Assembly (NCBI GenBank): GCA_040954595.2
Contig: CM082582.2
Coordinates: 11,838,415-11,902,414 of the forward strand
Source: Balanoglossus misakiensis
Taxonomy: Eukaryota > Animalia > Hemichordata
DNA: 64,000 nt
Direction of reading: 5' to 3'
Below the pieces are notes generated by a model. It made no database searches. It saw only the letters and a program-made list of their open reading frames with translations, and was not told the DNA's origin. How positions within the stretch are numbered: the stretch's first letter is position 1; the number at the start of each line of letters is the position of its first letter. Positions 499-51,863 of this stretch are shown here, piece by piece. Position numbers and translations under genes: made by a program.

Positions 499-2388
499 TT
501 GCACTTTACAAATGCACAAAGCTACATGAAATCGAACCTAATCCCCAACCCATCCAAATTCCGTAGAAGTGGTACCACTTCTCATACAAGTCGAGGGCAC
601 GCCCGGTCATTTTTTGGGATGAAAAACAGAGTTTATATGAGTTCACAATACAATTTCTCGGCGATACACCAGAGTACGGATCGTCCACGAAGGAGGACCG
701 TGACGAATTGCACGTCGCTGTCAATTAATCAACCGCACGAGAAAGTGAGAATCGTGCAGAGACAATCATTCATGTTCCATGCCTGTGAGGTGAGTGCGGG
801 CATACACAGATCTTACACTAGTTTCACATCCGAAGAAAATTGTTAAAGGGATTTCTTTGTCTTGCTCTTTTCACCGACAAAAACCTACTTTTCTTGACAA
901 GCATATTACGATGACAAATAACAAATAAAAACTGTCACCCTAAATCAATAGTTTGTCGGCAATTGTGCCGTGAACCCGTGTGCCCTTTTTCGACAACAGC
1001 TCCCCCAACGATCAAATATCTTTATAATCAACAGGAACATTTTGTGACAACCTTCTTGTTCCTCCTGTTTAATGCTCTGTAAGATTTATTTAAAAGCTGT
1101 TACAAATTTTAACCAGTGTAAACTTTCAACCTGTCCGATTTCTAAAATGCAATTCCAGCAATAATTACAATGTTAAAACTATGTGCACAAATCCGATATC
1201 TCTAGCAAAGTGTTTCAGAACTAAAAATATTTCAGCATTCAATTACCATAGAAACCACAACGGCAAAATTCACAGTCGACTCATACCCTGTGTTCAACAA
1301 TAATTTCACTGGTCCAGACAAGGCAGCTCAACCCACTGTAACCATGGCGATGCATTAGTCGCAACACCATTCTTACAACGGCCGTCCTTGCCTTACAGTA
1401 CATTACAAAGGAATAATTTTTCATCATACCCGGTCAAAAATGATATTGTACTTTTGTTCGACAGACCCTGAATACAGACAATATCTTGTTTTGACATCAC
1501 CAATGACTAATGTTCTACTCCATGAGTGCCAGAAAAAATATCAAAAATCACGGTGTCATTGTACGCAACATCCAATGTACAGCAGTCAAGATGTGTATTA
1601 TTGAGTCAAAGCATTTCTTCTTTGCTGTACTCCCCCTAATTGGTCTGCAGATTCATCATGTTGTCATGGTTACTGCACCATGGCATTTTGTTAGGGTGAT
1701 TTTTCTGATGTGCAAATGTATTGATAGAAAGATTCAGAAAAGTTGGTGACAAAAAATTCAAGAATAATAGGTAGATTTTACCTTAATATCTTGGTCTAAT
1801 GTAGGTAATTATGCGCTACTGGGAATTCATTAATACTTAATGGCCTTCAGTGTAAATCAAAGTCCAGGAGAAAACTGTACAAAATGGGAAAAAAAGAAAC
1901 CAATTTCAAAAGTTTATAGATCATACTATTATCAGATCCATCAATAATATACACATACGACTTGGGTGTTTCTCAGGTACGCTACATTATTGATATTCAC
2001 ATGCATTTTATAGGTATATGAATTTTCTGATCAGAATGGATTACTTTTTTTCTTTTCTTTTTCAATAAACGCAAGTTTTATCAAAACTAAATCCAAATGA
2101 TTGGGTTTTCTGTCATTTTTTTTTACTTTGCCATTCACTGGGAATTGAAAATTGCCCTGAGGTATTCTGATTTTTTTTACTTTGTTGCTTAAACACTGCC
2201 TGAAGTGCATCAAGCTTAATGTTTAGTCAACAAGCAATGGATGGATGGAGGAACCTGAAAACTACTGTAGATTTTGAAGTTATAGAAGACTATGAAATAT
2301 TTGCTTCACTGAATTCACCACATCTCAGACTTTCTTGGTTACAGTTCACACTAAGTAAAAGCCGTGCAGCATATTATAACCATTATTT

Positions 2389-2603
2389 TTAACCCTTTCA
2401 CCCCTGGTTCCTTCTATAGAGGTCCAACTTTACCATAGAAAACAATGGATTTGGGTCAAACCATGGTGGGACCTCATTGTATTCCTGAGTGTAGTATACG
2501 CCAGCCCTATATGAGGGCAACAGGTGTGTGCTAGCATGCATGTGAACATGTGAAGAACTAACATTTGTTGTTCTTACTCTGAAAACAGGGGTGAAAGGGT
2601 TAA
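2389..2603. mobile_element. TTAA-flanked piggyBac-type MITE (longer composite copy)
   Basis: TTAA-CCCTTTCACCCCTG at the left end and CAGGGGTGAAAGGG-TTAA at the right end; the first ~80 bp match the copies at 10774 and 49496. Confidence 0.7.
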
Positions 2604-2646
2604 ACCCAGAGATTCCTACATACATACTTTTGATTCGCCACAGACT

Positions 2647-5600
2647 CTATTGGGGAACATACTCCCATAAAGAGAAGAAGCAATAGAGGAAGACACCCAG
2701 GGAGAGAATGATAACAAGGCCAATGTTGAGACAGATCTTGACTTCGCGCTTTTGCTTGAGAGAAGTGATTTGCAACAGGTGCTCGTAGTGTTCCTGAAGT
2801 TTCATCTTCTCCTTCTCGGTCGTGGCAAATCCACAGAACCAGTTGCAGCCTCTCTTCCAGATTGACGGTTTCTCTGGAAAAAGATTGTGAAACAGAAAGT
2901 GGAAGATATTAAGATCTGAGTGACACTGACATCTTCATCAGTTAATTGTTATATCCTCCACATTGTGAAATCAAACACACATAGTTGCTTTTCTCAGAAG
3001 CACAAAATTTCAACTTGACCTCAGGCTAGCCCACTCATCATTGTTGACATTGGCAACATTAGAATATCATAGGTTTACTTTATTTCACTTATTGATAAAA
3101 TTGTAATACCTTCTTCAACATGGACATGGTCCCCAACCACTGTGTAATCAGCTCCTTGTGCTTTCTTGATGCGAAGCGAGGTTTGGGCACTTTCATCAAT
3201 CTTGGACTTGGACGCGTCAGAAAACGCATCCTTTGGGAAGTCCTCTCCCTCATCAGGCGTTTGCGTGCTCATCTCCTTGACGATTTCATAAGGCTGAGTC
3301 TTCGCATCACCATGGGCACCATCCGCAGCACGAGCCCTCTCCACATCACTGTTCTCAATTTTCTCTCCAAACTCCCCATCCACCATGGGTACATTGGTCA
3401 TGTCTTTGTGGTGCCGTGTCCAGAATGTTGTGCGATGAATCTAACCAAGAGACAAGTCACTGTCAATGACATACATAGTACTTTGAGCATAGACTGTGTT
3501 AAAGGCACATGAGCTGCAACTTTGTGGACAATTATCTAAGTAAATTAGCTTAGGACATAGCAAAACTAAAACAAATTGCTGCCTTGTGGCCCAGCCAGTT
3601 GCTGTATTAGTTCAATTGCAAAATAAACTGTGAGCATGTAAACCATGTGTCTTTCCAGTGGTTTGGAGAGCCCATATCCTTACCTTCTCTGGCTCTGGAG
3701 GCGCAGTGAGCAAGGACACTATGATGGTCACCAAAGTGGTCAGCCAGAAGATCAGAATAGCAAAGTACATATAGTGAACCTTGGCCAGAAATGGTGGGCG
3801 GTTGTCTTCATCTCCGCATTTGTGAGGACCTCGGTAGACAAAGACAAGAATCAGCCGAGTGACACCAGCGACAAACCCGGCCATCAGTCCCCAGAATGCA
3901 CCCTGCAAATAATCATGGTACAGTCAGGTGACAATAGCTTGTCATCTAACGGAGCTAAAAAAAAGATTTATAATGCAAAGTTTATTGTGTTACACCAGTA
4001 CATAGAGTGAAAGCCAAGCCCTGCCAACAGACTGTTTCTTATCACAAGGAAAAAATAAAAAATCTGATGTCGAAAGAAACCAAAGGCAACCAACATGAAA
4101 ACTAGAGATTAACATAACAATTTTACCTTTTCATTACAGCGTTTCCACAGAATAGCGATCAGGAAGACTGCTGCCACTGGGGGCGCAAAATAGTCTGTAA
4201 TCTCCTGGATGTAAATGAAGACCTGACCTCCTTGGGTTTCCTTGACAACTGGCACCCAGGCAATACCGATCACCACCATAACGCACACAAAAACTCTAAG
4301 AGAAAATAAAACTGGTTTTAATTCTTCAGTACAATACATGTCTTACTATTTCTGCCATCATGAAACCCCTTTCCTCATTGCCTCTTTACTGCCTGTAAGT
4401 AGGTATCTCACCTGCCAACAATCATAAGTTCCCTGACTGACGCCTTCTTGCGAATTCTTCTCCAGATGTCAATGGTGAACAGAGTACTGGAGCTGTTGAA
4501 GATGGAATCCAAATCACTCATGAGGGCTGCAATCATTACGGCCATCATCAGACCTCGGGCACCTAACAAAGAATAAAAACATTTGTACCGTACTTTGAAT
4601 ATTGCTCACAAGTTTTGGTCAACACTTTCACAAGTTTTGAGCCAGAACACGCATTACTGGTCTTAGGACAACACTTACCATCAGGCATCAGAGAAAGTAC
4701 CAGTCTGGGGTAAGCAATATTGGTACATCCGGCCTCACTCTGGCAGATTTCGTAGCATCTCTCAGGGATTACACAGCCAACCTCATCTGAGAAATTGTAT
4801 CACAGTAAACAAAAAAACATTAACACTGATTGATAATGGATTAAAAATGGCACCTAAGTACAAAATGTATTAACCAGGGATGAGAATGCCACACACCCCT
4901 AATTTCCCAATCAAATTTATATTTTGTTTTAAATTTTATTTATTTCTTTCTATGGTAACCTACCTGGATGTAAAATACGACTGATCATTCCAGGCATAAC
5001 CATGATGAAGAGTGGAAGAATCTTGATGAAGCCTGCCATCAAAGTTGCTCCCTGGGCATGAGACAGACTTTTGGCAGCCAAGGCTCTCTGTACAATCACC
5101 TGAGGAAGAAAAATGAGGAGTCTCTCAAGAACAGGGCAATCAAGAATCAGTAATGATTTTATTACAAAGAGCACAGCTCAATTGAGGAGCAAGTTATATG
5201 AATATTTTCAAGGTCTCTTGTTTTTTGAACTGGAGAACTTTAACAAAATGCCCTGTGATTTAATTAGTATTAGAGCCATGACAAAACCACTGCAGGACAT
5301 TATCATCAAGGTCTGTTTCAATATTCAAAGTTCTGAAGAAAAAAAGCAATGCTTACTTGGTCGGCACACCAGTACCAGATGGAGCCAGGTGTTTGGCCAA
5401 ACAGAAAGCCTGGCCATGGCATGTCAGGATCTCTTGGTTCTCGCAGCATCTTGAAGGAAAATTCAGACGTCTCATGACAGGTTTCATTTGCTATGGTTTC
5501 GTTGGTCTCTGCCAATGGATACTTTCTGACCAAGCCATCATAGCCACCAATCTCATTAAATCCTTAAAAAAGAAGATTTATTTAGTGCAACAAGTGTGCC

Positions 5601-8600
5601 ACTGGTAGCTATTAAAGACATTGAAACTCTAATTGGTGTTATGAAAGACTTGGCAATCTTTTTCCATCCCAATTTCTCAAGAGAGGAGATTGATATTTAC
5701 CTAACCACATCAAAGCAATAGCTCCAAAGACCATCAGGAAGGCTTGAAGGGTGTCTGTGTAGATGACGGCCGCCAATCCTCCTGGAAAGATGATAAAAAA
5801 AAATTACACAATTTCAGAAGCCACTGCATCCTCAGTTTCCCAGAACATTTGGCAAATCACCAGGGCCATAATTCTCTGACTGTGGTGAAGACACACTGAT
5901 CAAAATCAGATGTAGGGATTCCTTTGCTTCATCATTGCCCTTGGATCCCAAGAGAGACGAGGACAGCAGAAATGAAAAATCATACAATGAGCATACAAGA
6001 CCAAACGCAAATCTACATCTGATTATCATGAGGCCATGCTCGGTTTTTGTCATTTTTAAGTCGATTGCTGCAAAAGAATAAGTTGCATGTATAGCGCATT
6101 CATATTATTATACTATATTAAAGTGCAAAAAACTGTTATGTATAAGTCATATGTGACTATCACACGACAAGTGTCTCTGACTCATGTGACTGCCATGTGA
6201 CGGGAGTCTCTTTATCGAAGGTGAGAGAAATATATTTAGACTGCAATACCTGTTATTGTCAAGAGAGCAACAAAAAGAATGAGAACAACAATTGAAACAT
6301 ATAAATCCCATCCAAGAGATTGCTGGATGAACAAGGCTCCTGTGTACAAATCTACCTGCGACAAGAGGAAAAAAAAGCATCAGTTTAGCAAAGACACAAA
6401 CGTAAAGTGGACATTTTACCCCTTATGCACCCAGCACTTAGTGCAACTCAATGGCTTTCAGTGGTATGGTGAAACCACACACAGAGAAATAGGAGTGATT
6501 AGGTTAATGACTAAATTCTGGGCTTACAACTATTGAAGTCGGCCAAATTTGTTTTCTGGAAGAAAAACTTCTCTTGGTTAATACCACAAAATACAACTGT
6601 ACTACAAAAAGTGCATCAAAAAGAGAAATCTGCAGATACATGTATCAGCACAAAGCGACTTACCGAAAGCTTGGTGAAAATGTACAGTATCAAAGATAGA
6701 AGAGCAAAATATACTCTTAATCTCTGTCCGCCAAAACGTTTGGATAGGTACTGTGGCATTGTGAAAATCTGTTGGAAAATGTGCACAGAGTTGTCATTAA
6801 CTGATTCAGTCATATGAATACAACGATGACAATCATCAAAATATGACCACATCACTTAAATACAAAGTATAAGGAACATACAGCCCCAATCACATTCTAT
6901 CATTATATGTTTTGAGTACTTACACCACAGGCTATGTAGACAGGCAGGAAAACCCATCCTAACAACTGAAGTAAGAGAATTGCATTGAATTCCCAGGCAC
7001 CAACACCAATGCCTCCAGCAGCGCCAGATCCAGCCAACCCGATGAAGTGTTCACTGCCAATGTTACTGACGAACAGTGACGCTCCAACCTGTACAAAATA
7101 TAGTGAATGAACATCTGGTTGAAAGAAATTGCTGCCATGCCAACCAATCAGTTTTGACACAGACTCTTTAAGATGTCACACATTCAAAGTAACTTGAAAT
7201 TCCAGCACAATTTTCACAGCATAGTCGAAATTCCACTTTTCCAGGAGTCATTCAGGTGCTTCAAACCACTTTGCAGTTGTAATGTTGCATAAGAAACTTA
7301 TAAGAAATAAGAAACTTATAGGAAACTTATAATTGTAGACTCACCATCCAGAATGGCATTGTTCTCCCAGCCAAAAAGTAACCGGTAACAGTACCTCTGT
7401 TAGACCGGCACATGGCCTGCAATGAAGAAAAAAAAAACATTTTCAACATTATCATCATAAAAGCAAATCATTTGGAGGTATGAATCAATTATCTTATAAA
7501 GTTGGAATTTTTAATTCTCCATCACTGATATCAATTGCTAACATTTTTAATATAATTTTTCCTTCCTCATCAAGCAAATATGAGTCACCTCAACATCACT
7601 ATAGTAACCTGCAATTCATCACATAAAAACATTTTAACACAGTTAGGGACCTTTACACTCTCAGTGTGAAGCAAGGCTTTTCAGATGCAAGTGGAAAAAA
7701 CAAACACATTATATTTGCTCAGAACAAACCCACATTTGTATGAACTGGCCATCCATGGGTCCATAAGTGACCTGCAGCCATCTTTCTAACAATTTCTGTG
7801 CTGGCAGGTATAAGCTGCATAGGTATATTTATGGCAGGGGAGGGGAAGACCTTACTATTGTTTCTGTTTATTGACACCTGACATACAGAGAGTAAACAAA
7901 GGATTTTATTACAGTGGCCTTGTATGGCCAAGGCTCAACATGTTTTTTTACAACTGGTTGCCCCATATACGTTTTGTACATATATGATATGGTGTTTATT
8001 TACAGCACATGACAGACATACCCTGAGAGGGATGACGGCAGCAGTTTTGTAACTTTATTTCAGTTTTTGAGTGATGGGCTCCCATTCCTGTGCAAATATG
8101 CATGGCCAAAAGTGAAGTGCCTAGAAACGCCCGATGTTATGAACAATGGGGACAGTGAGTGTTATCGGTTTCAATGAACCAAAGTCCAGACAATTTTAAG
8201 TGTCTGCAAGAAACGGTACTCGCTTTGTAGAAAACACAACTCCCTACTACTTCTACCAAAGGCAAACGATTCATTTCATTTCCAACTGACTTTAGCCTGA
8301 TAATAAAGTCAGTTGGAAATGAAATGAATCGTTTGCCTTTGACTTCTACTAGGCTAACACATCTCTCAGAACTAGAAGCACATGACGAACCACCTCCCCT
8401 TCTATAGATTAAAAGTTTAGGCTGGTGATGAACAGGTGTATTTGATGTAATAAAACCATGACATGCAGGATTCCATGGAAAAGTCTTAACTGTTCCCCTG
8501 CATTGCTTTGTTCATTTGTAAATGGCTTCACATATAGCGTCGTTGTAAGAGAAACTTCTAGACGAAAACAACACACGTCTAGTATGGCAGGCAGGAAGGG

Positions 8601-8714
8601 CAGCACGCACCTCTCTATCATATATTTGATACTTACAAACAATCCCACTGCTATCACTAAGACAAAATAGGCAACGACAACCCCAATGTCAGCTCCAGAT
8701 AGCCTTCTCTCCAT
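2647..8714 (-). CDS. SLC5A3: sodium/myo-inositol cotransporter (SLC5/SSS family, SMIT1-like), ~14 coding exons
   Basis: GT-AG exons approx. 8714-8637, 7416-7345, 7088-6924, 6768-6664, 6355-6250, 5781-5700, 5562-5358, 5099-4964, 4786-4679, 4563-4411, 4295-4127, 3903-3684, 3440-3110, 2873-2647. Motifs [63 protein letters not shown] and C-terminal [25 protein letters not shown] match SLC5A3 best (GQTP motif). Confidence 0.9.
8257..8341. mobile_element. 85-bp foldback MITE with 8-bp TSD (P/hAT-like) in SLC5A3 intron 1
   Basis: Perfect 38-bp inverted arms (8257-8294 and 8304-8341) starting CAAAGG, flanked by the direct repeat ACTTCTAC at 8249-8256 and 8342-8349. Confidence 0.85.
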
Positions 8715-10115
8715 CTTGACAATCTTATAGACTTTCAAATCCAGGAGAATGCAAGAAAATTGTGGAAATGTTCTGTACCGAGATGTCCAGTGCAGTCGCA
8801 GGGCGCTCAACTAGTTGACTGTGTGACCGATTAGTGAAAGCGTGCTCTATATATTAAAGTCTGAGGGCAATACGTTTTTAAAATATTGTTTAACGCACAG
8901 ACACTTGTAATATTTTGGCGTCGAAAGGATTACGGTCGCACATCACTCGAATATCAGTTACTTAACGATGCTTGACCAAAAGAGCAACGATTGTGACCGT
9001 AATCATATAGAAAGATAGCTATACCACCTATGGGGGAGGGGTGGAAATCGTTGATCGTAAAACTGGTCAGTTTCTTCAACCAGAGACTGAAGGAGGTCAC
9101 TCGATTTTGTTCGGTGCACATCAACTGTCACTGACCCAATAGATAAAAGTAAAACAGGGGACCCTTGACAGGAAGTATTTAAGATTATGTAGAAAGGGAT
9201 ATGGTAAATAAAGCAATGCAAGATAACTATAATAACTGATTTTCCTGTTGTTTCCATAACTAGGCTCTTGAAAGTAGATGTGGGATGGCATGATTCTAAT
9301 GTTCTATTGGTAGATGGTGCTCAATTGATCAGTTGTGTGCCTTTTTTAAGGAAAATCCCATGAGTATACAATTGCTCATTTGGATATAAATAGAATTCTT
9401 TCTTGACAAAGAATTAGTTTTTCTCAATAGACTGGCTGAAGAAAGACACCCTCTCCTAAAGTTCAGTAGTGAAGAACTGTAGGCCAGGTAGCCAATGGAA
9501 TATTTAAGTGCTATTCAGTAGTTCCTTGAAAGAACAGGCATCACAAAACAAGTGCATGCAAAGGTCAGCAAAACCCTGCAGGCAAAAGCTCACCCCCCCC
9601 CCCCCCCCACAAATATATTTAAATTACTCCAAATTTGAAGAAAGTCCAAGTGAAAGTGAAGATGTGGCACAGTAAAGCATTTAAAACTTTAATTACTTTC
9701 TTTATAACTTTCTATACAGGCAGCAACACAGGACCAAAGTGGTTGATTGAGTTAAAAGCAGATGAAATTGGTCAGGCGATTATCAACATTGACAAGTGCA
9801 TAATCAGTTTCCAGACTTGCAAGGCACCAACAGCTAAGAATACAAATCACTCACTCAAGACAGGCACATATGAAACAAGGTTTTTTTATTTCTCATCTAT
9901 AAATAAAACTCAAGTAGAATGGAAAACAACTGCTGACAAACAGCCACTGGACATTTCAGACCAAAAGGATCTTCAAGTTTCCCATTTCACACCTGTCAAT
10001 AGAAAAAGAAGAACTATTAGTAATACTACATGTATACAAAAAATAGCAAAAAACCATTAATTCAAAAATTATCCCTGGTGAATTATTTCAATACGTTACG
10101 TTTTATTCTTGTACA

Positions 10116-10182
10116 ATGTCTCAGACAAACCAATCAACACTGAAGATTCTGCCTGGGGCGGTAAAGTTCATCATCATTGACT
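10116..10182 (-). ncRNA. SNORD31: box C/D snoRNA, SNORD31/U31-like (copy 1)
   Basis: Box C ATGATGA (10177-10171); guide TACCGCCCCAG complementary to 28S CUGGGGCGGUA; D' CAGA; box D CTGA (10124-10121); flanking stem. Confidence 0.88.
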
Positions 10183-10402
10183 TGTACTTGTGTCTACTAA
10201 GAAGTATATAAAGACCTACCTCTTTCATTCAGATCACATCTCAGAAAGCATTTCATTACACAGAACTCAAGGCTACAGAGGTCCAATGCTCATCATCCAC
10301 AGCAAGTCCCTGGAAAGAAAGAATAACACAGTCTGAATTATCAAAATCATAAACACTCTCCATGGTACAAGTAAAACAGACCTGGCTTGTGTAGTCAGTA
10401 AA

Positions 10403-10471
10403 GTTTCTCAGTCTAAAAACCAATCAACATGATTTAAGTCTGCCTGGGGCGGTATTAGATCATCATTGAAG
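10403..10471 (-). ncRNA. SNORD31: box C/D snoRNA, SNORD31/U31-like (copy 2)
   Basis: ATGATGATCTAATACCGCCCCAGGCAGA...GTTGATTGG...CTGA, with a GTAAAG/CTTTAC flanking stem. Confidence 0.88.
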
Positions 10472-10773
10472 CTTTACATTCTGAAGGCACCAGTGACCTG
10501 TAGTGACACATGGATTCAACAACAAGTACTGGATTGTAGTTTATGACAAAATGAAACAAGCCATAATTCTCCACAAGATGATTTTGTTCATTACCTAACA
10601 AACTGGATAACGAGAAGGCCACAAAGCTCCAACTATAACAGCCCACAGATACTTCCACTGCTGACATTAATTTGACCTGCTCTCGAGCTGACCTTCACTT
10701 CTGAGGAACTGCTGATGAAAGACAGAACAAGTAACAATATGTTAAAGAGCATCACACATTTTTGTTTTGCTTT

Positions 10774-10858
10774 TTAACCCTTTCACCACCATGGTTCAGT
10801 CCAAACCCACTGTTTTCTAGGGTAAGTTGGACCTCTATAGAGGGAACTAGGGGTGAAA
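10774..10858. mobile_element. piggyBac-type TTAA MITE copy
   Basis: TTAACCCTTTCACCACCATGG...CTAGGGGTGAAA; same family as the copies at 2389 and 49496, in the opposite orientation. Confidence 0.75.
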
Positions 10859-10872
10859 TGCCCAGTGGAAAT

Positions 10873-10958
10873 GTCACATTCAGAAATCACAAATCTTCAA
10901 CCTCTCCTAATGGAGAGGAGTCAGAACAGGTCTGAGAATATATTCATCATTCTGTGAC
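10873..10958 (-). ncRNA. SNORD25: box C/D snoRNA, SNORD25/U25-like
   Basis: Stem GTCACA/TGTGAC; box C ATGATGA; guide CAGACCTGTT before D' CTGA, complementary to 18S AACAGGUCUG; box D CTGA. Confidence 0.88.
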
Positions 10959-11213
10959 ACTGCCTGGGTCAAAGGTCACCAAATGGTCAAAGGCCAATAA
11001 GATCAGCAAGAACTGCCATGGGGAATAAATCCAGCATTGTGGAACCAAACAAAGTTGGACAACTAAAACTTTTAAATCGAATCCTTACCTCCTGTGTAGG
11101 ATTTTGATCTTCTAAACGTTCAACCTGCAGATAAAATAACACGGAGTATGATTATTGGGCACTCTTTCTCTGTATCACAATCTATAATGGATTCTGAACA
11201 CCATTTCCTGTAC

Positions 11214-11290
11214 AAGCTCAGGTATAGACATTTGTAATCACAAAAGCAAAAGCTAGATCATACGAACGAGACATTGTCTCATCACTGCTT
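11214..11290 (-). ncRNA. SNORD30: box C/D snoRNA, SNORD30/U30-like
   Basis: Box C GTGATGA; guide GTCTCGTTCGT before D' ATGA, complementary to 18S ACGAACGAGAC; box D CTGA; AAGC/GCTT stem. Confidence 0.75.
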
Positions 11291-11551
11291 ATACTCCAAG
11301 TCATTCTCTGCTATACATCAAATCCAAACATAATTCTGGCAAGGCCAATTCTTTTAGGAATAACTTTCAAGGTTACCATGACTACCTGCAGCGAGCATTC
11401 TTCCTAGCCAAGATGCCAATTCTGTACAGATGCCTTTAATGACCTGAAAGTACATAAAAACAAGAAACCATCTAATACTTGCATTAGCATTCACCTAAAC
11501 GATAGATATTTACAAAACCACCATACTACATATACAAGCATTATACTCTTT

Positions 11552-11630
11552 GAGGTCTCAGACTAGATACATAGGTCAACAAACAAAGTTCAGATATATG
11601 CTTGTCAGTATTAGATCATCACTGTACCTC
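11552..11630 (-). ncRNA. SNORD27: box C/D snoRNA, SNORD27/U27-like (copy 1)
   Basis: Box C GTGATGA; guide GACAAGCATAT before D' CTGA, complementary to the 18S 5' region AUAUGCUUGUC; box D CTGA; GAGGT/ACCTC stem. Confidence 0.88.
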
Positions 11631-11804
11631 TTTCCACAAGCAGAAAATTACCCAGTTGTGAAATAAAAATTACCTTTTATTTATTTCATCAAATCCACAC
11701 TTCCATCTGTACCCTGGAGGATAAGAAAACAAACTTTATGTGAGCCAGGATTTTCATGTCACCTGTATAGATTAGTATATTTGTTAGAGATGCCACTCAG
11801 TTAA

Positions 11805-12943
11805 AGTGGAACGTTGTGATCCGTTTTTGAGCCAATTCTGCGAAATGCGATTAAAAAGTACTATGAAAAACGTTGGTTTCATTCACTTTCACTTACGCAT
11901 AACAGAGCTACAGCCAGCCAAAAACTGCGCGAACCCGGAAGTGAGTGACGTCAGCAACTGTTGTCCGCTGCCGACGCGTTGGAGCGAGCTTATGCTTATA
12001 CACGCCTGCACTCACGCGACCGACGACGTTAGCATGGCAACATATTCTCGGGTAGTAGGCTACAATTTTGAACCAGAGATTCCCTTCTACGACCAAGCGA
12101 CTGAATTTTACAGAGGACAAAAGTTCATGCAGTTCTGATCTCCGATGTGTCCCGTTTGTCAAGGCTTACACTTGGTGTGGTTTCATCAGTGAAACCATAG
12201 ACCCTAGAGTCTATGGTGAAACAGACAATGATACCCTCCCTCGTTGTCTCTCCCTCGTTGTCACCTTTTCGAACCACTTTTCTTACAAAAATACTTAGTC
12301 ACCTTTTATGGAGTTGAAAAGAACGCAGGTGCATCGTCCTGCTCTCCAGGTTTAGTACGTCCGTAGTATAATGGAAGCCAATACTATAGTTATTGTATGC
12401 ATGTTTCGTCTCTTGAAATGTATTAAAACTGCCCTTTTTAGTTGCTTTCATTTGATAACTATGCGATCGTCAATAAATGGAAATTAAACCCAAATACGTG
12501 TACCAAAAAACGTGCAGGAAGGATTTAAAACGGTACGTTTATTATTATCAGCGGCAGTTAGAACAACTTTGTATAGGCCTTACGGTTTGTTCATAAACGT
12601 CGACATGCATGGCATCATGGACATTGCAGGGTCTATGTCTGCACGCATCGACAAATACAATACACGAAGAGCATTGCCTTTGAAAGAAACTTATCCCCGT
12701 CGATTTTCCGAATATGTTTTTAAAATCATGAACTTGACATTTCGCCATGTCAGATCCGCGCAAAATGTGTCTGTTTATTGGAAATGACACGTCGAACGTG
12801 TAAGTTGCTGACGTCACTGTAGTATTTTCAACGCGCGTCTTCTGCTTGCGCAGGAAGTGAAAGTGAATTAACCCATCGGAACGTTGCCGTTTTTGACACC
12901 CGGTTTGTACTTTGAAGCCCAAAATTGAGGGTGTCGTTCCTCT
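11805..12943. mobile_element. non-autonomous DNA transposon with TTAA TSD and AG...CT termini (Kolobok-like), 1139 bp
   Basis: TTAA at 11801-11804 and 12944-12947; imperfect TIRs AGTGGAACG / AGAGGAACG; boundaries independently fixed by the interrupted snoRNA; no transposase ORF. Confidence 0.8.
12196..12215. mobile_element. 20-bp mini inverted-repeat insertion or footprint with 7-bp TSD
   Basis: GTGAAAC-[CATAGAC cctaga GTCTATG]-GTGAAAC. Confidence 0.55.
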
Positions 12944-13518
12944 TTAAGTATTAAGCGTTGGAACGAAGAGTTTTCTTCATCATTCATTTGAACTCAAAGC
13001 GAGCTAGGATTATCTTGTCATCATTGTGGCAGATGATCATGAAGAATTTAGTGTGACCTCTGTGACCTTTCATCAATATGTGTGGAATGCCAAGAAATTT
13101 GATATGGGAAGATTCTGTAATAAATTAGGTAGCGACTGATGTGGTTTCCACAAATGGCATTTCAGATATTTCAACAGTGCAAAGTACGCTTGGCCAAAAA
13201 AAATACTTGGTCTTGGAGAATCAGCCATACAAAGCACATCATGAAACTGTATAACAGAAGATTTTCCTTGAATGGCCATTACTGTACAAACAAGTGGTAA
13301 CCTTACCCTCTGTGACACTCCCAAGGTAGTAAGCCATAAAACTCAGGGTCTGGGTCCAGGTCTCCACCCCATGATGACAAGTCATTGACCCTGTAAAATC
13401 AAAATGTCAATTGTTTTCCCATTAAATACGTTCACACTGCATTGAAAATGTACGAATAGTTCCAGACACATTAAGTACACAAAACCTTTCCCAGGAACTT
13501 TGGCCCGTCCTTTTTTTG

Positions 13519-13597
13519 ACTGGTCTCAGATCAAATAATCATTTCAACATAACATGTTCAGATATATGCTTGTCAATGTTGATCATCCTCGACCAGT
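13519..13597 (-). ncRNA. SNORD27: box C/D snoRNA, SNORD27/U27-like (copy 2, variant box C AGGATGA)
   Basis: 7-bp stem ACTGGTC/GACCAGT; TGACAAGCATATATCTGAAC identical to copy 1; box D CTGA. Confidence 0.82.
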
Positions 13598-13838
13598 GAA
13601 CTAGTAATCTTATACATTTATTTCTTTTATGTGATCTATGAATTGATGTAACAGATTTACATGCAAGTAATATGGGAACAGCTGCAAGTAATGTAGCATT
13701 TCACAAACACTTACCTTTACATATTTGGTGCAGAGTGATATTTAATCCTCGCCCTAAAATAAAACCATAGATACATACAATTACCTGATGATTGAATTTG
13801 CATTTTATTGTTGATGTAGACATGGCATATTCTAGGGG

Positions 13839-13936
13839 TGCCACTCAGATAATTCTTTAGCGTTGGAACGAAGAATTTTCTTCACCGTTCATTTGAACTC
13901 GAAGCGAGCTAGGATTATATGGTCATCATTGTGGCA
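13839..13936 (-). ncRNA. SNORD29: box C/D snoRNA, SNORD29/U29-like (intact copy)
   Basis: Stem TGCCAC/GTGGCA; box C ATGATGA; guide CCTAGCTCGC pairs (with G:U) with 28S GUGAGCUGGG in the same register as U29; box D CTGA. Confidence 0.8.
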
Positions 13937-16900
13937 TAAAGTATTTTGCATGACTATCATTGATCGTCAACCGGCAGATACATGTCCTTACATATGGTGG
14001 TGGACGTCACGTGGGGTCATGCACACACGTGGTAAAGGCTGAAGCATTTGTAGAGCCTCGACATCGCGCGCGCGAGGTTCCCCACATTTCGCAATTCCAG
14101 GGTTACAAAATCCCCTCATTTGGCAAACTATAATACATAAAGTGACCAGTTGATATCCACATTAGATATTTTGTCGGCTCCATTGACAAAGTCTCTCTGG
14201 AAAGCAAACCTAGGCCGCGCTGACCAAAAGCTATCAGCCCGTGCAACTCAAGTGATGCTACGGGTTCCATTCACGATTGAATGCATGCCACCAGCACTAC
14301 CTTGAATGTAGAACTTGAAATTTTCATGTGAAAAAGCGACAAAGCAGCGGTCATATCTCTCATACATTGTACTAACCATTTCATGACGCTAAAAATGTTC
14401 TCAAACCGGAATATATCTTCTGGAAGCAGACGACCACACCACTTACATGTTTACACACCCTCCACATGGCTGGAAATGGCTGTAGTCTCGATTACCCAGA
14501 CGCCTTTGCTTCTTCCGCTGCTGGTGCGCTGATCACTGCGCATAGAACTGACGCCCTCTAACGTAACAGACCTGGGTCATGTCCTGGGTTGAGATGATGA
14601 TGTTTTACTTGCCAAGTTGCTCGCTTGAATAAAGAAATATATAAATAGACGCCTTTATGTTTAGCAACGTTGGTATTTATTCCATGTATGTATGCAGAGA
14701 CAAGTAAGTAACAAGAGAACATCGGATACAGTCTATTGGTGTGTTCTGAACTTGAAACAGAAGACGCTCTAACTTTACATTTTGGGAGTTTGAAGATGAG
14801 ATGAAGATGGATGAATAGGAATGGGTTTTTTTTTCACATAACGCGACGTGTTTAGCGCCCTCTAGAGAACTGTCGACAAATAAACGTCAAGTCGGTCGGT
14901 GATGACAAGTTTTCCAACTGGCCGTAGAAAAAAAAACACAGACATTTTCAGTGATTTTTTAATGGATTTCATAGTGCATGTAGATAGGTAGGCCTCAAAC
15001 AACAAAATCAAAGAATTCTCTCCAATTTCCTGATTTCACTAGGAACCAATCTCGTTTCTTTTCAGAGAGTGTGGTTTTATTTTATTAATCTTCCGGCAAT
15101 ATGTTTTTCAATTAGGCCAGTGTAATTGAATAAAAACACGGTCATTTAGGAAAACTCGAGCACAAATCTGACCTGTATTAATGCTCCAGGAATTACAACA
15201 ACTCATTCTATGAGAATGGCCACAATCCGGTCTATAATTACTGTTTATCTATAACGCAACATCGTTTTCACAATTCGGAATCTCGATTTCATTTTCCCTG
15301 ATTAATGATTTCTGTCACCTGATTATATGCACAATCATAAATCCACTCATTCATTTGCAACGCAGAGTAATTTATGCCGTTAGGCTAACGAACGGAATTG
15401 ATAGAATTATACGAGGAAGCAGTTGACAATAACGGGAAAATAATGGGGAAAGTGAATAAAAGCTGGATCGTTGACAGTTGCATCCATACGTGCTCGGCAG
15501 ACAGCAGTGCGTGGCAATCTAGTCGACATCTCGACTTCATAAAGGAAAGCGGCGATTTCTCAGTCTGTCTTATCTAACTGAATGCTAATTTATTGAAGAT
15601 TTACTCAATGTGCTTTTGCATTTTACACGATGAAATCCGACTGTGATTGTACTAAAGACGGCGAATCGCGAATTATAACCACAGCCGACGGAGGTAGCCT
15701 GCTTTTTCATGCCTTTATGCCTTCAGCGCTGGGACTTCTCCGCTAGTGCCCGGAAGAACTCAAGAAATGCGAGACCTCTGTGATTGATTGGGGTCTCGGC
15801 GTTGTGTATTTTAATAATTAAAGTGTCTCTATTATTAAGAATTTATTGAGTAGGCTGACAAAAGGGTTTGATCTTTCCAACGGGGGCTAGTCATATGCAA
15901 CGTTCGCGGTGATTTCGAAGCACGCCCGGGGGCCAGCTACTCCAGAACGCAGTGGGGCTCAATTGAAGGGTGGAGACTTGACAGGGCTAACAAGGGGGTC
16001 ACGTATATACTTACAAACCTACTACGGCAATCTCACACCAGGGGCAAATATAATTTCCGTTACCATAGAAACGTCGGTATTTTCAATCTGCGTGAATGAA
16101 CATATTGTGTGATCATTTTCGTGGCTTTAGCCCCAGAATACTTGTTTCTCCCCCCCCCCTTCTCTCTCTCTCTCTCTCCCCTCGGATGTTTCTGGCTTAT
16201 TTAAGCACGTGACCACGTCGCCTTTCTTGCGAGGTGTGATTCATCTTGGAGGAAACGTCATGAATATTAATACATCAAGACGCTTTCCCTCTCATCTATT
16301 TGGCATTCATGTATGATGATGCTTAAATCGGCGCGCACTCCTGTCGGCTCGTGTGAACGCCATCGGAAAGCCCCTCGTTTTTGTTTAAAACGTCTGGAAT
16401 ACTGATAAATTTCTATGGTGATACGCTGAGACGTGGCCTTGAATTGATGTACGCAAGTCTCGTGGGGATACACCCCCCATTCTTGTCAAGTGAAATAATC
16501 CAGTGGTAATACTTAAACTGCCTAACGCAGGGCATGTTGAAATTGAAAGAAAGTGCTCTTGAAAGTGTCGATAGAGTGGCCGATAAGGACGGACAACGAA
16601 TCTTTGTTTGACACCAATTCCGACTTGCGCTTCGCTTCGTATCGGTCTTGTAAGTAACGACGTTGTTATCGCAAAGCGCTCTTGAGCGCAGAAGAAACAG
16701 TCCCGGGCGATAAACGATAAAACGCGCCAGATGATGCGTGAAGGAGTAAAATGAAAAGTGTTCTTTTGGCGTTTTGTCCGCTTTACGTCGGTGACCGTAA
16801 AAGACAACGATGACTGTTGCACTAACTAAGGACCCCAGGGAAATCTCTGCTCATTGCAAAATAACTCCTAGAAGTCAATTTAGCGTGGACGATTTTCTTC

Positions 16901-18770: not shown

Positions 18771-21700
18771 ATGCTCTCAACGTTGACGCTAGTCTTGCTA
18801 TTCAGCCAGCTCTGTCTAGGTGAGTAAAAAGCAATCAATTATGCCACAGCCATTCATCACAGCAAAGCACCAGAGTAACTACATGTTACAACTTCTTTCT
18901 CGTAGCATTGTACAGGTCTAGGAAATCAACAACAACAATGACCTCAGCCGCCCGCTATGTTTAAGAAATAGCGGCGATTAAACACACAAAGTCATGCGAA
19001 GTACAATTTTGTTCTATTTGCCCTGTTTACGTGTGTCAACAACACTTACAGAAGACATACCGCATAGACAGTTTAACGTGCCGTCGAAATAATGGGGTAT
19101 CGCTCTAATTAACAATTGCAGGGATTTAGTCGCAGCTATTGTACATCTTCAAATCTCCCAGTCAACAGTCCAGTGGTGTTAGTTATTTGTCACTAATCAA
19201 ATCGATACCCTCTTTGTACCTTCTTTCCGTCTGGATGACGAATTTCCTCTCTCTCCCTCTCCCCCTCTCAACTGTGACTCTGCCCTCCACCCCTCCCACT
19301 ATCTTATCTGTCTGCCTATCTGCCTGTCCTTCGTCTGTCCATCTATTGCATTCCTCCCCTGCCCTCCCCGTCTCCCCTCACCCCCTCTCTTTCTCTCTCA
19401 GGCGATGCAGCAACTGTCAGTGTATCCCCCATCTCACAGTGCAGGCGCATGTTAATGGAAGTGGAAGGCAACTTTGGAGTAACTGCGCCACAACCGCCGG
19501 AAATCTACGGAGAGTGGGTCTCCACCAGGTGAGGCAACACTTGCTATTTCCACAATTTCTGCCTGCAATGATCTTCGTATGTGCCTGTATATAGCCGTGA
19601 TGGCCACTGACAGTCAGTGTAGCTGTGTAGGTCACTGACAGTCAGTCTCACAGCATGTCAAGTTTGATATAGTCTTTTACTGCTGAACAGTCTACAGGCA
19701 AACATCAGGTACGTTCAGGATCAGTTGTTGACGCGCTGTATGCCCTGCCTGTATTTCTTTCTACCAAAGCGTGATATGCATTCGTAAACACATGTTAAGG
19801 TGCACTTAAGTGGGATATGGCATGTTCAGATCTGGTTTCACTTCACAAGAGGGCATATTGTGCGGATAAGCTGGCATTGTGATTTATCTGACAAAACTTT
19901 GAGCCTTAGAAGGCCTAGGGAAAGATTGTCTGGTTGCTTTGAGTGGCAGCTAAGGCCGGCGAACAAACAAGAGCCAGCTCAGACTCTGGAGGCAAACCCG
20001 ATTCAAGGAATAAGATTCCCCTTCCATATGCACAAACGCTTGCACGCATATACTCTGGAGGCCGAGTGAAATTAAACTCATTCCGGAGTAGAGTCACGCC
20101 TGCCCGCGTCTCTACTCGGGTATCTGCCGAGATATGGCGCTGTAGACAACGATACTGAGTCTTGCTGAACCAGCACAGGAAACCCACGCTTCAGAAGTGA
20201 TGTGAAGTTTGTGGAAGAAAGTACCGACAGATGCGCGTACAAGTCAAAATGTGACAGTTGTCTCTCCTCGCGAGTACGATCGCATAAAGTGGACCCCTTC
20301 TTATTGCAGATGACACCGAATGCTTGACCCATAGCAAGCAGCTTGCATTGCAAGCCACGGGCTAGGCTAATCTTGTAATAACTTTATGCACCATGGACAA
20401 AGGATACAAACGGGGGAAACTTTAGCGCAGGTAACGAGAAAAGACAGCCTTTGACAGCCGTAATTTGAGAAAGAAATTTGAAAGGGACACTACTTAAGGA
20501 GGAAGCAGTGTACAGCCTCAGCATCCTGGAGGTCACACAGAAGAAATCCCTCACCAGGGGCATTTTTTTCGAGCGTCTTTCCAAATCACTGTCCGAAATC
20601 ACCGAACGACATCCTGATTTAATTAAATTGATTGTTTGCGTTCACACGGTCTTATCTCTATGTGTAACATCACGTAATACCAGGTTCTGGGAGCGGTTCA
20701 TTCGTTCACAGGACTATACATCATCAAGATCATCTCGATCTGCAAACACTGGCCAAAAGTTGTTGGCGGGAAGGAAATTTTGGTCGCCAGTTGTTACAAT
20801 ATGTATGATTGAACAAAAATCGTGACGTGGCTCGTCGGAAACGCAGAGTATGGTATTCCTTGAGCAGTGTCTCGAGGCGATATGCTTTTAGTGGAGTAAA
20901 AACCAATATTCAAGATGCCTGCTCTATAAAATATACAAAGAAGCTGAGTAGGCCAATTTATCAAAATATGTGTTCGCTCTGAAATTGAATTACAAGACGC
21001 GGCGGCTACTTTAATATCATCCGGACAGGGATGGGTTTAGAAGGAGTACTAGAAGATATACTTCACGGTATTTTTGAGCCACAGGCAGAAAAACTGGAAT
21101 AGTTATCGCGGATCATTTTTTTCGCCCCATGCTATTTGGCTATAAGTGACCAAAAAGTTGCAGCGTGGTCTGACGTATATTGAGACGAACAATGACCCTC
21201 CGAGCCGCACTGAGAACATACCACTCAAAATAGACTTCTTCATCGACAGCTGCGGAGTTTTTCAGTGCTTCCGAATGTGTGCGAGCCATGAGGGAGGATG
21301 AAAGATAACACATCTAGAAGCCGACCACACTTTTGAGCGAGCATTACGCAGCTTCAGTATCATTTCGAGACGCAGCAGGGAAGGCCCTCGATGCCAGATT
21401 CAAATTATTACCGCCACAGTGCGCTGAGTAAATACTTCGTGCCAATAATAGGGCGGCCCATTGTGAGTTGCGGACTGTTCCGTGTGAAAATGTAGAGTGC
21501 AGTTTTCATAAGCTGTGGACTCTTTTACTGTAAGGGTGGCCGAGAGCGTTGGATATTTTAGTGTATGTTTAGTCAACTGTCTTGTTTTGCTAAGGATTTT
21601 GTTTTGGTACTTTAATTATTGTCGAGAATGACCATACCAATACTAGCCCCCTAGCATCCTTATTTTCCTATCTGACCTGAGCTGATATGATCTGGTTTTA

Positions 21701-49495: not shown

Positions 49496-49578
49496 TTAAC
49501 CCTTTCACCCCAAGTTCCCTCTTTAGAGGCCCAACCTTGCCATGGGTTTGGACTGAACCATGGTGGTGAAAGGGTTAA
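49496..49578. mobile_element. complete piggyBac-type TTAA MITE (~75 bp core)
   Basis: TTAA-CCCTTTCACC...GGTGAAAGGG-TTAA; a partial further copy lies at ~56727-56767. Confidence 0.8.
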
Positions 49579-49716
49579 AGGTCATGCTTACAGCATGCAA
49601 ATGCATTTGTTATTTGAATGATATACATGTATTATATATTACCCAGTGATAGTGCTTGAGGAGATGTGTGGTATGACGTTGGACTATTATGGAAAATGCA
49701 GAGAGAGGGGGTAAAC

Positions 49717-50112
49717 TTAGGCTTCCGACTTTATCACATTGTCTTCTCTTGTATGAACAGCATACTCATGATCCTTGAGAGGGGCACCATTCTGTACACA
49801 ACAACGAGGTTCACTGTTCATGGCAGTGCAGAAGTTTCCCGAGCCACTGGTGTCCGGCATATGGCCGGCATGGCACAAGAACAGATCCTTAAGGACACTC
49901 AGCTCCTTGGAGAGCAGTTTGACTTTGACTTCCAGCTGCTCATTCTCAGCCTTGAGTTCATTCACTCTCTGCAGAGTTTCCTGGGTTCTCTGTTTCGTCT
50001 TCGTGCGACTCTTTCTCACAGCGATGTTGTTGCGTTCCCTGCGTTTCTTGTACTCGTCGCTCTTCTTGTCGCTATGGTACTTCTTATTGGCCTTTGAGCT
50101 ATCTGGCGCCAT
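49717..50112 (-). CDS. CEBPG: CCAAT/enhancer-binding protein gamma, 131 aa
   Basis: Short bZIP protein with no activation domain: SDEYKKRRERNNIAVRKSR...VNELKAENEQLEVKVKLLSKELSVLKDLFLCHA. Acceptor at ~50218 and a probable non-coding first exon ending at 50894. Confidence 0.92.
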   Translation of the reverse strand: MAPDSSKANKKYHSDKKSDEYKKRRERNNIAVRKSRTKTKQRTQETLQRVNELKAENEQLEVKVKLLSKELSVLKDLFLCHAGHMPDTSGSGNFCTAMNSEPRCCVQNGAPLKDHEYAVHTREDNVIKSEA

Positions 50113-50893
50113 TAGCACAGGAATATGTTCTCCCGACCAGCTGCAAAATGGGTGTGTGGATAATTTCCTTGTCTCAAGATGTTCGCTTCCTTTTGGGCTG
50201 CTACAAGTAGTTGTATCCTAGGATCATAAACAGAGATCATAGTTATAGAGAAATATTGAGATTGATTACTTTCACCACTTTCTTCCACATAATTTTAACA
50301 ATCGAAAGGAGACTACTACAAGAATAAAGTTGTTGTGTGCAAAACACACCTCTCCTAACACCCACATATGCAAAGTAGGTCATATCAGACTGTACAGTGT
50401 ACAAAAGTCAAAACTAAGCGTATGATCGGCCTCTGAAAAGTGTAGAATGATACAATATCAGCAATCGATGCACCAAGTAATGGGCAGAATTACAAAGCGT
50501 TACATAACCGTTGGTCCTTGCATCACAAACTGCGGCAACAGCCGAAATGTGTGTACTGTCATATCAGTTGTATTTATGATGACGTATACTAGTATATCGA
50601 TGTCGCCATTCTGGTCAACATTTTCGAGTTGATCTTGGCACTATCGCAGGGACTTAGCTTTCCTCTAGTTTGGCCGATAATTTAGGCTAAAGGTCTTTTG
50701 GTGTTGTATAATTTCCAACCGCCAAAATAATTGCTGCGACAGACGCTAGACATTGCATAACGAGCAGCGTGTGCGCATGTTGTTCTTTGGAGACGACAAG
50801 CTACAAGCACACTACAATGTACAACGGCCGTGCATTGCAAAGGTGTGACCCACTTCTCAACCAATCGACACATCAAAATCTACAAAACCTCAC

Positions 50894-51700
50894 CTTTTCT
50901 ATGGTTTGTCCGATTGAGGATATATTCTTAACAAGAATGTAGTACGTCCCCTTCGTAATTTCGGCCTGTAAGTGCAAATTTACGCTACGCGTTGTTGCAA
51001 AAGATGTCTGTGTTCAGACGCTGTAGTAAATGATGATGTAATTTGAGGTTCGTGTTGCTGGAAGCCTGGCCAATCAGAGAAGGCGATATGAATGTTCGTG
51101 AATGTGTTCATCGACAGTAAACGTTACAGTGATTGGCTACTATTTTCAGGTATGATACTTGTATATCGCTTTTCGCTTACATTTTTCTCTGAATTTTATA
51201 GTCACTTTCTTATACTTATGATATTGGTTATACATATAGTTAGTCTTCATCCAGGTAGCATCCATAAGACAAATAAATGTAACACGTGTGTAAAGTAGAT
51301 TGCGCAATCACAAGAAAGCCTGTCTCAGCATGTCAAATTTTCAACCAATGAAACAATTTCTTGATGACATCAGTTACTATTTTTGTAAGACCTATTTCAC
51401 ACATTTAGTGACCTTTTATATTCATACGCGAAAAAAAGAACCTTGCGTGAACATCTACTTGTGGTTCTGTCGTCAGTTTCGCACAAAATTGTATATAATA
51501 ATTGTCCTTTCACGTAAATGGTACGAAGGAATGTCGCGTTTCTGAAAATTAGTGACAGCCGCAGCGACATATTCCCCCAAATTGTTGCGCATTGATATAA
51601 CATCCCTTGCGAAGGGGCTAATCTACGTAAGAACCACGTTTGCCATGACGTTCGCACTTTGTCACATTGAAACAGCTGGATAAGACCTGCGACACATCAC
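50894..51700. promoter_or_regulatory. bidirectional promoter between CEBPG and the C/EBP gene
   Basis: Divergent genes; perfect C/EBP palindrome GATTGCGCAATC at 51298-51309; C/EBP-ATF composite TGATGTAAT at 51034-51042; CCAAT boxes at ~51070, ~51132 (reverse) and ~51346. Confidence 0.65.
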
Positions 51701-51863
51701 CCGACGAAAAAGCGTCGGAATTTACGGCAAAAGTGACCGTAAATACACTGAACTCGTTAGATTTGTGCTACCCAACCGCCAAGATAAGTACCTTCAGCGA
51801 TCTCGGTCTGGATTTCAGTGAAATCACGGCTCTCGACGGATATATCAACGAGGAAACTCCACC

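What the first reader, a model, noticed from the sequence alone, without database searches (positions are those of the whole stretch)
11791..13031. snoRNA split by a 1.1-kb transposon but retaining box C, box D and terminal stem
Seen: the SNORD29-like copy runs TGCCAC-boxC-guide-D'...CCAACGCTTAATAC[TTAA + 1139-bp element]TTAA-CTGA-GTGGCA on the minus strand. Deleting the insert leaves exactly 10 nt between CGCT and box D, the same spacing as the intact copy at 13839-13936. Box D still sits about 80 nt upstream of the 3' splice site. Known: intronic C/D snoRNAs are defined by exonucleolytic trimming to the C/D kink-turn. Inference: the locus is either a recent pseudogene buffered by its duplicate, or it produces a ~1.24-kb stable RNA capped by a single C/D motif and carrying transposon sequence, with the short TIRs possibly helping bring the ends together. 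Precise TTAA excision would regenerate a functional snoRNA.
Basis: partly seen in the sequence, partly recalled or inferred. Interest (0 to 1): 0.85.

Follow-up and report, generated by a model that had tools for sequence, protein, structure and literature searches.

The report
Transposon splits a duplicated snoRNA
A 1.1-kb high-copy DNA transposon sits inside one of two copies of a small RNA that likely guides ribosomal RNA methylation; one contig from a sequenced sample shows the same site without the insert, so this is likely a recent, ordinary insertion that probably disables a spare copy, and a giant 1.24-kb snoRNA remains possible but untested.

Summary
A 1139-nt element (11805-12943) with TTAA on both sides interrupts a C/D snoRNA just before box D. 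Removing it in silico gives 98 nt, the paralog's length, with 10 mismatches. The snoRNA resembles snR71/U29: its D' guide and a second element pair with neighbouring stretches of eukaryotic LSU rRNA. It lies in a spliced, multi-snoRNA host gene. The insert is a young, high-copy element whose other copies share both ends. Its AG...CT termini fit Kolobok, not piggyBac, so precise excision is unsupported. One contig in one run joins across the insert (skip 1143 = 1139+4; short side only 30 letters), so the sample is probably heterozygous. The claim that the TIRs bring the ends together got no support: shuffled inserts close the stem in 27 of 31 folds. No data test the long RNA. Verdict: a recent insertion allele, most likely null and buffered by the paralog and the empty allele. 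A stable 1.24-kb C/D RNA is about 20% likely.

The parts
12948..13031 (-). 5' part of the split C/D snoRNA (copy b): stem strand, box C, D' guide, D' box, C'-like box, accessory rRNA-pairing element
   Evidence: 90% identical to the paralog over 87 nt; guide and accessory element pair with LSU rRNA
12944..12947 (.). TTAA target site duplication, snoRNA-5' side
   Evidence: sequence; other copies run on into unrelated flanks behind 12947
11805..12943 (.). 1139-nt DNA transposon with Kolobok-type ends (AG...CT, 9-nt TIRs with 8 of 9 matches), high copy, no transposase gene detected
   Evidence: no transposase match
11871..11894 (.). subterminal inverted repeat arm (24 nt, 88%), partner at 12855-12878
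11944..11959 (.). subterminal inverted repeat arm (16 nt, 100%), partner at 12803-12818
11801..11804 (.). TTAA target site duplication directly before box D
   Evidence: sequence; other copies run on into unrelated flanks before 11801
11791..11800 (-). 3' part of the split snoRNA: box D (CTGA) and 3' stem strand
   Evidence: matches paralog 13839-13848
13839..13936 (-). intact paralog (copy a), snR71/U29-like, in the first mapped intron of the host gene
   Evidence: Rfam snR71 25.5 bits, E 0.029; terminal stem predicted at P about 0.9 in its whole intron
11714..13306 (-). host-gene intron (1593 nt with the insert, 450 nt without) that holds the split snoRNA
   Evidence: GT/AG in sequence; spliced joint skipping 1593 nt in an X5 contig
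13522..13594 (-). SNORD27-like snoRNA, copy a (partner in the duplicated block)
   Evidence: Rfam SNORD27 43.5 bits, E 3.6e-5
11554..11628 (-). SNORD27-like snoRNA, copy b
   Evidence: Rfam SNORD27 33 bits, E 0.013
10116..10184 (-). SNORD31-like snoRNA; a second copy at 10411-10473, further C/D candidates at 10878-10954 and 11210-11294
   Evidence: Rfam E-value scan; all below gathering scores

Best explanation
A young, high-copy, likely non-autonomous Kolobok-type DNA transposon sits at the TTAA directly before box D of one of two duplicated snR71/U29-like snoRNAs; the insertion is likely polymorphic and probably makes this allele a null that the paralog and the empty allele would cover. Shown: the element, its TTAA-flanked ends shared by other copies, the spliced host gene, and the pairing of the guide with environmental LSU rRNA sequences. 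Supported by one contig plus a matching contig start: an empty-site allele in the sample. Inferred: a transposase encoded elsewhere moved the element in trans to a TTAA without seeking small-RNA genes. Inferred: box C and box D, now 1.2 kb apart across transposon RNA, rarely form the kink-turn, so the debranched intron is degraded. Methylation of the target adenosine would continue from copy a on both haplotypes and from copy b on the empty haplotype, so selection against the allele would be weak.
For: Multi-copy: X1 depth is 1,539-15,428 in element bins against 27-63 in flank bins. One 410-nt contig inside the element has depth 3427 and one differing letter, against 20-36 for single-copy contigs (the tool warns depth is no copy number, so order of magnitude only). 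Boundaries: loose unrelated flanks before 11801 and behind 12947 in X1 (3 and 3 contigs) and X5 (1 and 1). Empty site: X1 contig of 247 nt, depth 27.5, covers 11589-11805 without differences and then joins to 12949, skipping 1143; the next contig starts exactly at 12949. Filled junction in the same sample: X2 contig 11693-11821. Kolobok is defined by TTAA TSDs with RR...YY termini, unlike piggyBac (PMC9587614), and full-length Xenopus copies all begin with AG (PMC6004289). The intact paralog has the same guide. Loss of a single modification-guide snoRNA is rarely detrimental (PMC7277114). The element carries 2 AATAAA and 5 donor-like motifs on the transcribed strand. The long box C/D RNAs named in the paper I read are 330-420 nt (PMC4041459), a third of this length.
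Against: Nothing measures the RNA of the filled allele, so 'null' is inferred. Every snoRNA element is intact: boxes C, D', C' and D, the guide, the accessory element, the stem and the 83-nt spacing. A single C/D core supports processing and stability of an enlarged composite RNA (PMC4041459). The empty-site joint is one contig in one of the three runs of that sample, with 30 letters on its short side (the tool asks for 31) and one letter different next to TTAA. The filled-junction contig reaches only 17 letters into the element. No transposase remnant was confirmed, so 'Kolobok' rests on the ends alone. The runs may be the window's own source, so they are not independent individuals.
Confidence: 0.72

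Rival explanations
1. The filled allele yields a stable ~1.24-kb intronic RNA closed by a single C/D kink-turn with the transposon looped out; it may still guide methylation, because the D' guide, the C'/D' motif and the accessory element all lie 5' of the insert.
For: The insert falls in the most variable part of the snoRNA, the 10-nt spacer (4 differences between paralogs; 2 allelic differences in the paralog's spacer), and leaves all motifs intact. Folded alone, the 1241-nt segment forms the stem at P 0.96-0.99, with the TIRs and subterminal repeats closing the insert. Intronic C/D scaRNAs of 330-420 nt exist, and a C/D core stabilised a composite RNA (PMC4041459). Flagellate telomerase RNA binds Nop58 and Snu13 (PMC4993307).
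Against: The fold result is not specific: 27 of 31 shuffled inserts and 20 of 28 shuffles keeping the TIRs also close the stem. With 30 nt of real flank the stem has P about 0. In a local fold the TIR end pairs with the 3' stem strand. Described long intronic snoRNA-ended RNAs need two snoRNAs in one intron (PMC5054931). The length is about three times the longest precedent I read.
Confidence: 0.2
2. The main effect is on the host transcript: the insert reduces or reroutes splicing or ends transcription early on the filled haplotype, lowering the downstream snoRNAs as well.
For: The only host-gene contig laid in the RNA-like run X5 carries the non-window letters at the listed sites, while the DNA runs keep both alleles at most of them. 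The element has polyadenylation-like and donor-like motifs on the transcribed strand.
Against: It is one contig, and contig assembly keeps the commoner path and drops the other, so it cannot show allele levels. Phase between those letters and the empty site is inferred. The other haplotype also differs at a splice donor, which could explain a bias without the insert.
Confidence: 0.12
3. The element targets small-RNA genes (Dada-like) or is a piggyBac-type element that excises precisely and restores the snoRNA.
For: It sits in a snoRNA; only 2 of the window's other 286 TTAA sites fall in the 8 snoRNA bodies counted, the pre-insertion site included. The empty allele has exactly the restored length.
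Against: Flanks of other copies are unrelated to each other and to this locus, and one copy adjoins a dispersed repeat. Dada makes 6-7 bp TSDs (PMC3706591 abstract). The termini are AG...CT. An ancestral never-filled allele explains the empty site more simply.
Confidence: 0.04

Closest known systems
Non-autonomous Kolobok elements, e.g. Xenopus T2-MITE (PMC6004289, passages; PMC9587614, passages and Background)
   Same: TTAA target duplication, AG...CT (RR...YY) termini, short imperfect TIRs, high copy number, no transposase detected
   Different: Terminus is AG[A/T]GG rather than the AGGRR motif of T2-MITE; 1.1 kb long; the autonomous partner was not found; no sequence comparison with a transposon library was possible
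snR71 / SNORD29 (U29) box C/D guide snoRNAs
   Same: D' guide pairs with the conserved LSU stretch, placing an A opposite the fifth nucleotide before D'; the UCCAAC accessory element aligns with the Rfam snR71 consensus; snR71 is listed among snoRNAs with extra base-pairing (PMC3116282, passages)
   Different: Below the Rfam gathering score; 98 nt against 65 nt for human SNORD29 (PMC11351223); duplicated here, one copy interrupted
U22 host gene UHG/SNHG1 (PMC7277114 and PMC11351223, passages)
   Same: Compact spliced host gene with short exons and one C/D snoRNA per intron, including SNORD27-, 29- and 31-like members
   Different: Order and copy number differ (29-27-29-27, two further candidates, 31-31); no U22, U26 or U28 match appeared; orthology not tested
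sno-lncRNAs (PMC5054931, passages)
   Same: Would be a long non-polyadenylated intronic RNA protected by snoRNP proteins
   Different: sno-lncRNAs have a complete snoRNA at each end; here one C/D motif would have to close both ends
Long intronic box C/D scaRNAs, 330-420 nt (PMC4041459, passages)
   Same: One terminal C/D core enclosing long internal hairpins
   Different: Conserved and functional; a third of the length; not a fresh transposon insert
Dada transposons (PMC3706591, abstract)
   Same: DNA transposon inside a multicopy small-RNA gene
   Different: Dada is target-specific, autonomous, with 6-7 bp TSDs; this element has a TTAA TSD and unrelated flanks

Membership tests
Kolobok superfamily | 4-bp TTAA target site duplication | tested here: met
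   TTAA on both sides; other copies also include TTAA at both ends; empty-site joint skips element plus 4
Kolobok superfamily | 5'-RR ... YY-3' termini with short TIRs | tested here: met
   AG...CT, 8 of 9 TIR matches; definition from PMC9587614
Kolobok superfamily | DDD/E transposase with C/DxxH signature (or KolX) in the element or an autonomous partner | tested here: inconclusive
   No long ORF. Two short ORF starts look like THAP and KolX N-termini (recalled), but Pfam, the atlas and phmmer gave no support. No genome was held to look for a partner.
piggyBac superfamily | TTAA TSD with termini other than RR...YY (CC...GG, recalled) | tested here: not met
   termini are AG...CT
piggyBac superfamily | precise excision | not testable with these tools
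   an empty allele of exact length cannot be told from a never-filled allele
Dada transposons | specific targeting of small-RNA genes with 6-7 bp TSD | tested here: not met
   4-bp TSD; unrelated flanks of other copies
Box C/D guide snoRNA, snR71/SNORD29 type | boxes C, D', C', D and terminal stem | tested here: met
   present in the paralog and in the two halves of copy b
Box C/D guide snoRNA, snR71/SNORD29 type | antisense element to the LSU rRNA target obeying the D'+5 rule | tested here: met
   77 of 108 metagenome loci match the two-element pattern with the same 23-nt gap. Of 20 loci scanned, 13 of 15 with that gap are LSU rRNA (12 best eukaryal, 1 best bacterial) and 0 of 5 with other gaps. 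The organism's own 28S was not available.
Box C/D guide snoRNA, snR71/SNORD29 type | Rfam family score at gathering threshold | tested here: not met
   25.5 bits against 60 for snR71
Box C/D guide snoRNA, snR71/SNORD29 type | stable RNA bound by Snu13, fibrillarin and Nop56/58 | not testable with these tools
   only contigs were available, no raw or small-RNA reads
sno-lncRNA | two complete snoRNAs in one intron | tested here: not met
   intron 13306-11714 holds one, split snoRNA

The most novel reading that the evidence does not exclude
The filled allele makes a stable 1.24-kb 'giant snoRNA': one C/D kink-turn clamps both ends of an RNA that is 92% transposon, and the intact D' guide still methylates 28S rRNA. 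A heterozygote would then carry matched 98-nt and 1241-nt versions of one snoRNA, showing that a transposon jump can create a long nucleolar RNA in a single step.
Probability: 0.2. Interest if true: 0.7.

Novelty: new member of a known kind. Interest (0 to 1): 0.3.

Why it matters
As most likely read, it matters little: a fresh transposon insertion survives in a redundant snoRNA copy, a normal step by which snoRNA duplicates decay. Its value is as a natural, allele-matched test of how far apart boxes C and D can be. The long C/D RNAs I read of are 330-420 nt, and longer intronic ones use two snoRNAs. A stable 1.24-kb product would triple that range and give a one-step route from a transposon to a long nucleolar RNA. 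One Northern blot would decide it.

Tried and rejected
No whole genome was held, so there is no genome-wide copy count or partner search. Rfam at gathering score found nothing in 64 kb. No RNA holder was listed on record. X5 behaves as RNA (spliced joints) but has no contig over the 5' part of the snoRNA or across this locus's element junctions, and its end-bearing element contigs come from other loci; this is no evidence on the long RNA either way. Folding as support for TIR help was rejected by the shuffle controls (real energy -342.5 against -329.3 +/- 9.9). Folding as evidence against the long RNA is also weak, because the version with the element removed loses its stem with flanks too, and proteins are not modelled. 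The idea that the element is a deletion derivative with THAP-transposase and KolX starts (recalled resemblance) got no match in Pfam or the atlas. The single phmmer hit (E 1.2e-4) is a repeat in an NB-ARC protein and was rejected. The element is not a nested intron on the transcribed strand: its ends are AG...CT. Organism B runs X3/X4 hold only the element and another dispersed repeat at depth 2-6 and no flank; I read this as trace DNA, not transfer. A window position at 52154 resembling the element end lies inside a bZIP reading frame and was dismissed. Three look-ups of earlier findings returned nothing. Literature searches for a transposon-interrupted snoRNA or a long single-core C/D RNA listed no such case by title or abstract start (0 papers). 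The library lacks most subscription papers and I read no supplements, so this does not show absence from print.

Full report
Observation. On the minus strand a C/D snoRNA begins at 13031, runs through box C, guide, D' and a second conserved element, and is interrupted at TTAA (12944-12947) by 1139 nt, followed by TTAA (11801-11804), box D and the closing stem strand (to 11791). Removing the element and one TTAA gives 98 nt, colinear with the 98-nt paralog at 13839-13936 with 10 mismatches. No second copy of the element lies in the window.

The snoRNA. No Rfam family reaches its gathering score. The best weak match of the paralog is snR71 (25.5 bits, E 0.029), and the alignment shows two shared elements: the D' guide and a UCCAAC stretch. 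I tested the target with a pattern complementary to both elements. Of 108 metagenome loci returned, 77 have the same 23-nt gap. I scanned 20 of the 108 with Rfam: 13 of 15 with that gap are LSU rRNA (12 best eukaryal, 1 best bacterial) and 0 of 5 with other gaps. The guide places an adenosine opposite the fifth nucleotide before D'. That snR71 and SNORD29 share this target is recalled. snR71 is listed among snoRNAs with extra pairing near the site (PMC3116282, passages). Both pairing elements lie 5' of the insert; the insert falls in the variable spacer before box D. The organism's own 28S was not available.

The host gene. Weak Rfam matches mark SNORD27-like (two), SNORD31-like (two) and two further C/D candidates on the same strand between 10116 and 13594. 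This recalls UHG/SNHG1, which holds U22 and U25-U31 (PMC7277114 and PMC11351223, passages). Run X5, not on record as RNA, has a 429-nt contig joining four exons; two of its three joints have CT..AC ends, one skipping 1593 nt, exactly intron 13306-11714. The host gene is therefore spliced on the minus strand. Box D ends 83 nt before the 3' splice site, near the ~70 nt described as critical (PMC5054931, passages); the insert cannot change that distance. The X5 contig carries the non-window letters, so splicing of the filled intron itself is not shown.

The element. Five runs were listed: three of one sample (X1, X2, X5) and two of another organism. I laid X1-X4 on 9800-14700 and X5, X1, X2 on 11350-13800. 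In X1, depth over the element is 1,539-15,428 against 27-63 over the flanks. A 410-nt internal contig has depth 3427 and one differing letter, so the family is young and on the order of a hundred copies (rough; depth is not a copy number). Contigs run on into unrelated flanks before 11801 and behind 12947 in X1 (3 and 3) and X5 (1 and 1), which confirms both boundaries with TTAA. The termini are AG...CT with 8 of 9 matching bases, plus subterminal inverted repeats. Kolobok is defined by TTAA duplications with RR...YY termini, unlike piggyBac (PMC9587614, Background). Full-length Xenopus Kolobok copies start with AG, and T2-MITEs are their presumed non-autonomous partners (PMC6004289, passages). 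No transposase remnant was confirmed, so the label rests on the ends.

The empty site. X1 has a 247-nt contig (depth 27.5) matching 11589-11805 without differences and then 30 letters from 12949: a skip of 1143 = 1139 + 4, with one letter next to TTAA differing from the window. The next contig starts exactly at 12949, as expected where two alleles merge. X2 has a contig running from 11693 through TTAA and 17 letters into the element. The sample is thus probably heterozygous. The limits: one contig in one of three runs, a short side one letter under the tool's 31-letter rule, contigs that may mix haplotypes, and a sample that may be the window's own source.

Would a long RNA form? Folded alone, the 1241-nt segment closes its stem at P 0.96-0.99, but so do 27 of 31 shuffled inserts and 20 of 28 shuffles that keep the TIRs. 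In the whole intron the stem has P 0.0, and in a local fold the TIR end pairs with the 3' stem strand. The version with the element removed also loses the stem once 15-30 nt of flank are added, while the paralog keeps it at about 1.0. Folding therefore neither supports TIR help nor excludes the long RNA; it hints that copy b may be the weaker copy anyway, since stable terminal stems go with expression (PMC10234308, passages). Precedents cut both ways. A single C/D core supports 330-420-nt scaRNAs and a composite RNA (PMC4041459, passages), and flagellate telomerase RNA binds C/D proteins (PMC4993307, passages). The long intronic snoRNA-ended RNAs described need two snoRNAs. The element carries two AATAAA and five donor-like motifs on the transcribed strand. 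No data here test the RNA.

Mechanism and odds. Most likely (0.72), a Kolobok-type element inserted recently at a TTAA, the allele gives little or no stable snoRNA, and the paralog and the empty allele cover the loss; loss of one guide snoRNA is rarely detrimental. Rivals: a stable 1.24-kb single-core RNA (0.2), a main effect on the host transcript (0.12, which can coexist with the null), and targeting or precise excision (0.04). Dada elements target small-RNA genes but make 6-7 bp duplications (PMC3706591, abstract).

Novelty. The parts are known kinds. Searches listed no transposon-interrupted snoRNA of this form, judged from titles and abstract starts; the library is partial and no supplements were read. 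Three look-ups of earlier findings were empty. Verdict: a real feature, a new member of a known kind, interest 0.3. The remaining value is the cheap allele-matched test of a giant C/D RNA (probability 0.2, interest 0.7 if true).

Noticed in passing
window 13713-13714 (minus-strand donor after exon 13753-13715): The other allele in X1, X2 and X5 changes the GT donor to GA, and the X5 spliced contig runs on to about 13650 and beyond before joining 13393: an allele-specific exon extension in the host gene.
   Followed up: partly
window 13032-13061: Sequence just upstream of copy b is predicted to out-compete its terminal stem even with the element removed, while the paralog keeps its stem; copy b may have been the weaker copy before the insertion.
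   Followed up: partly
window 10773-10858; related copies at 2389-2469, 49496-49579, 56714-56770: A short dispersed repeat with very high depth sits next to the candidate snoRNA at 10878-10954. One copy of the TTAA element elsewhere in the genome lies 11 letters from a piece of this repeat.
   Followed up: no
window 12599-12743 and 12190-12228: Some element copies replace 145 nt by 18 other letters (X1 and X2), and a 24-nt palindrome at 12194-12217 has loose ends around it, suggesting subfamilies and a nested short repeat.
   Followed up: no
window 12748-12680 (-) and 12034-12135 (+): Two convergent short ORF starts inside the element resemble THAP and KolX N-termini (recalled); four kinds of search gave no support.
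   Followed up: yes
runs X3/X4, window 11801-12840: Runs filed under another organism hold a 1052-nt near-identical copy of the element and the dispersed repeat at depth 2-6 but none of the flanks; probably trace DNA, horizontal transfer not excluded.
   Followed up: partly
window 8257-8341: An 85-nt near-perfect palindrome, apparently intronic in the downstream multi-exon gene (which looks like a sodium/solute symporter; label recalled); its Rfam miRNA matches are below gathering scores.
   Followed up: no
window 18802-18860 (-): An isolated C/D-like motif pair with a short stem, about 4 kb upstream of the host gene's first mapped exon.
   Followed up: no
window 49717-50217 (-) and 51649-52689 (+): Two divergent bZIP-like reading frames (C/EBP-like, recalled); the second has Pfam bZIP_2 at E 8e-16.
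   Followed up: partly
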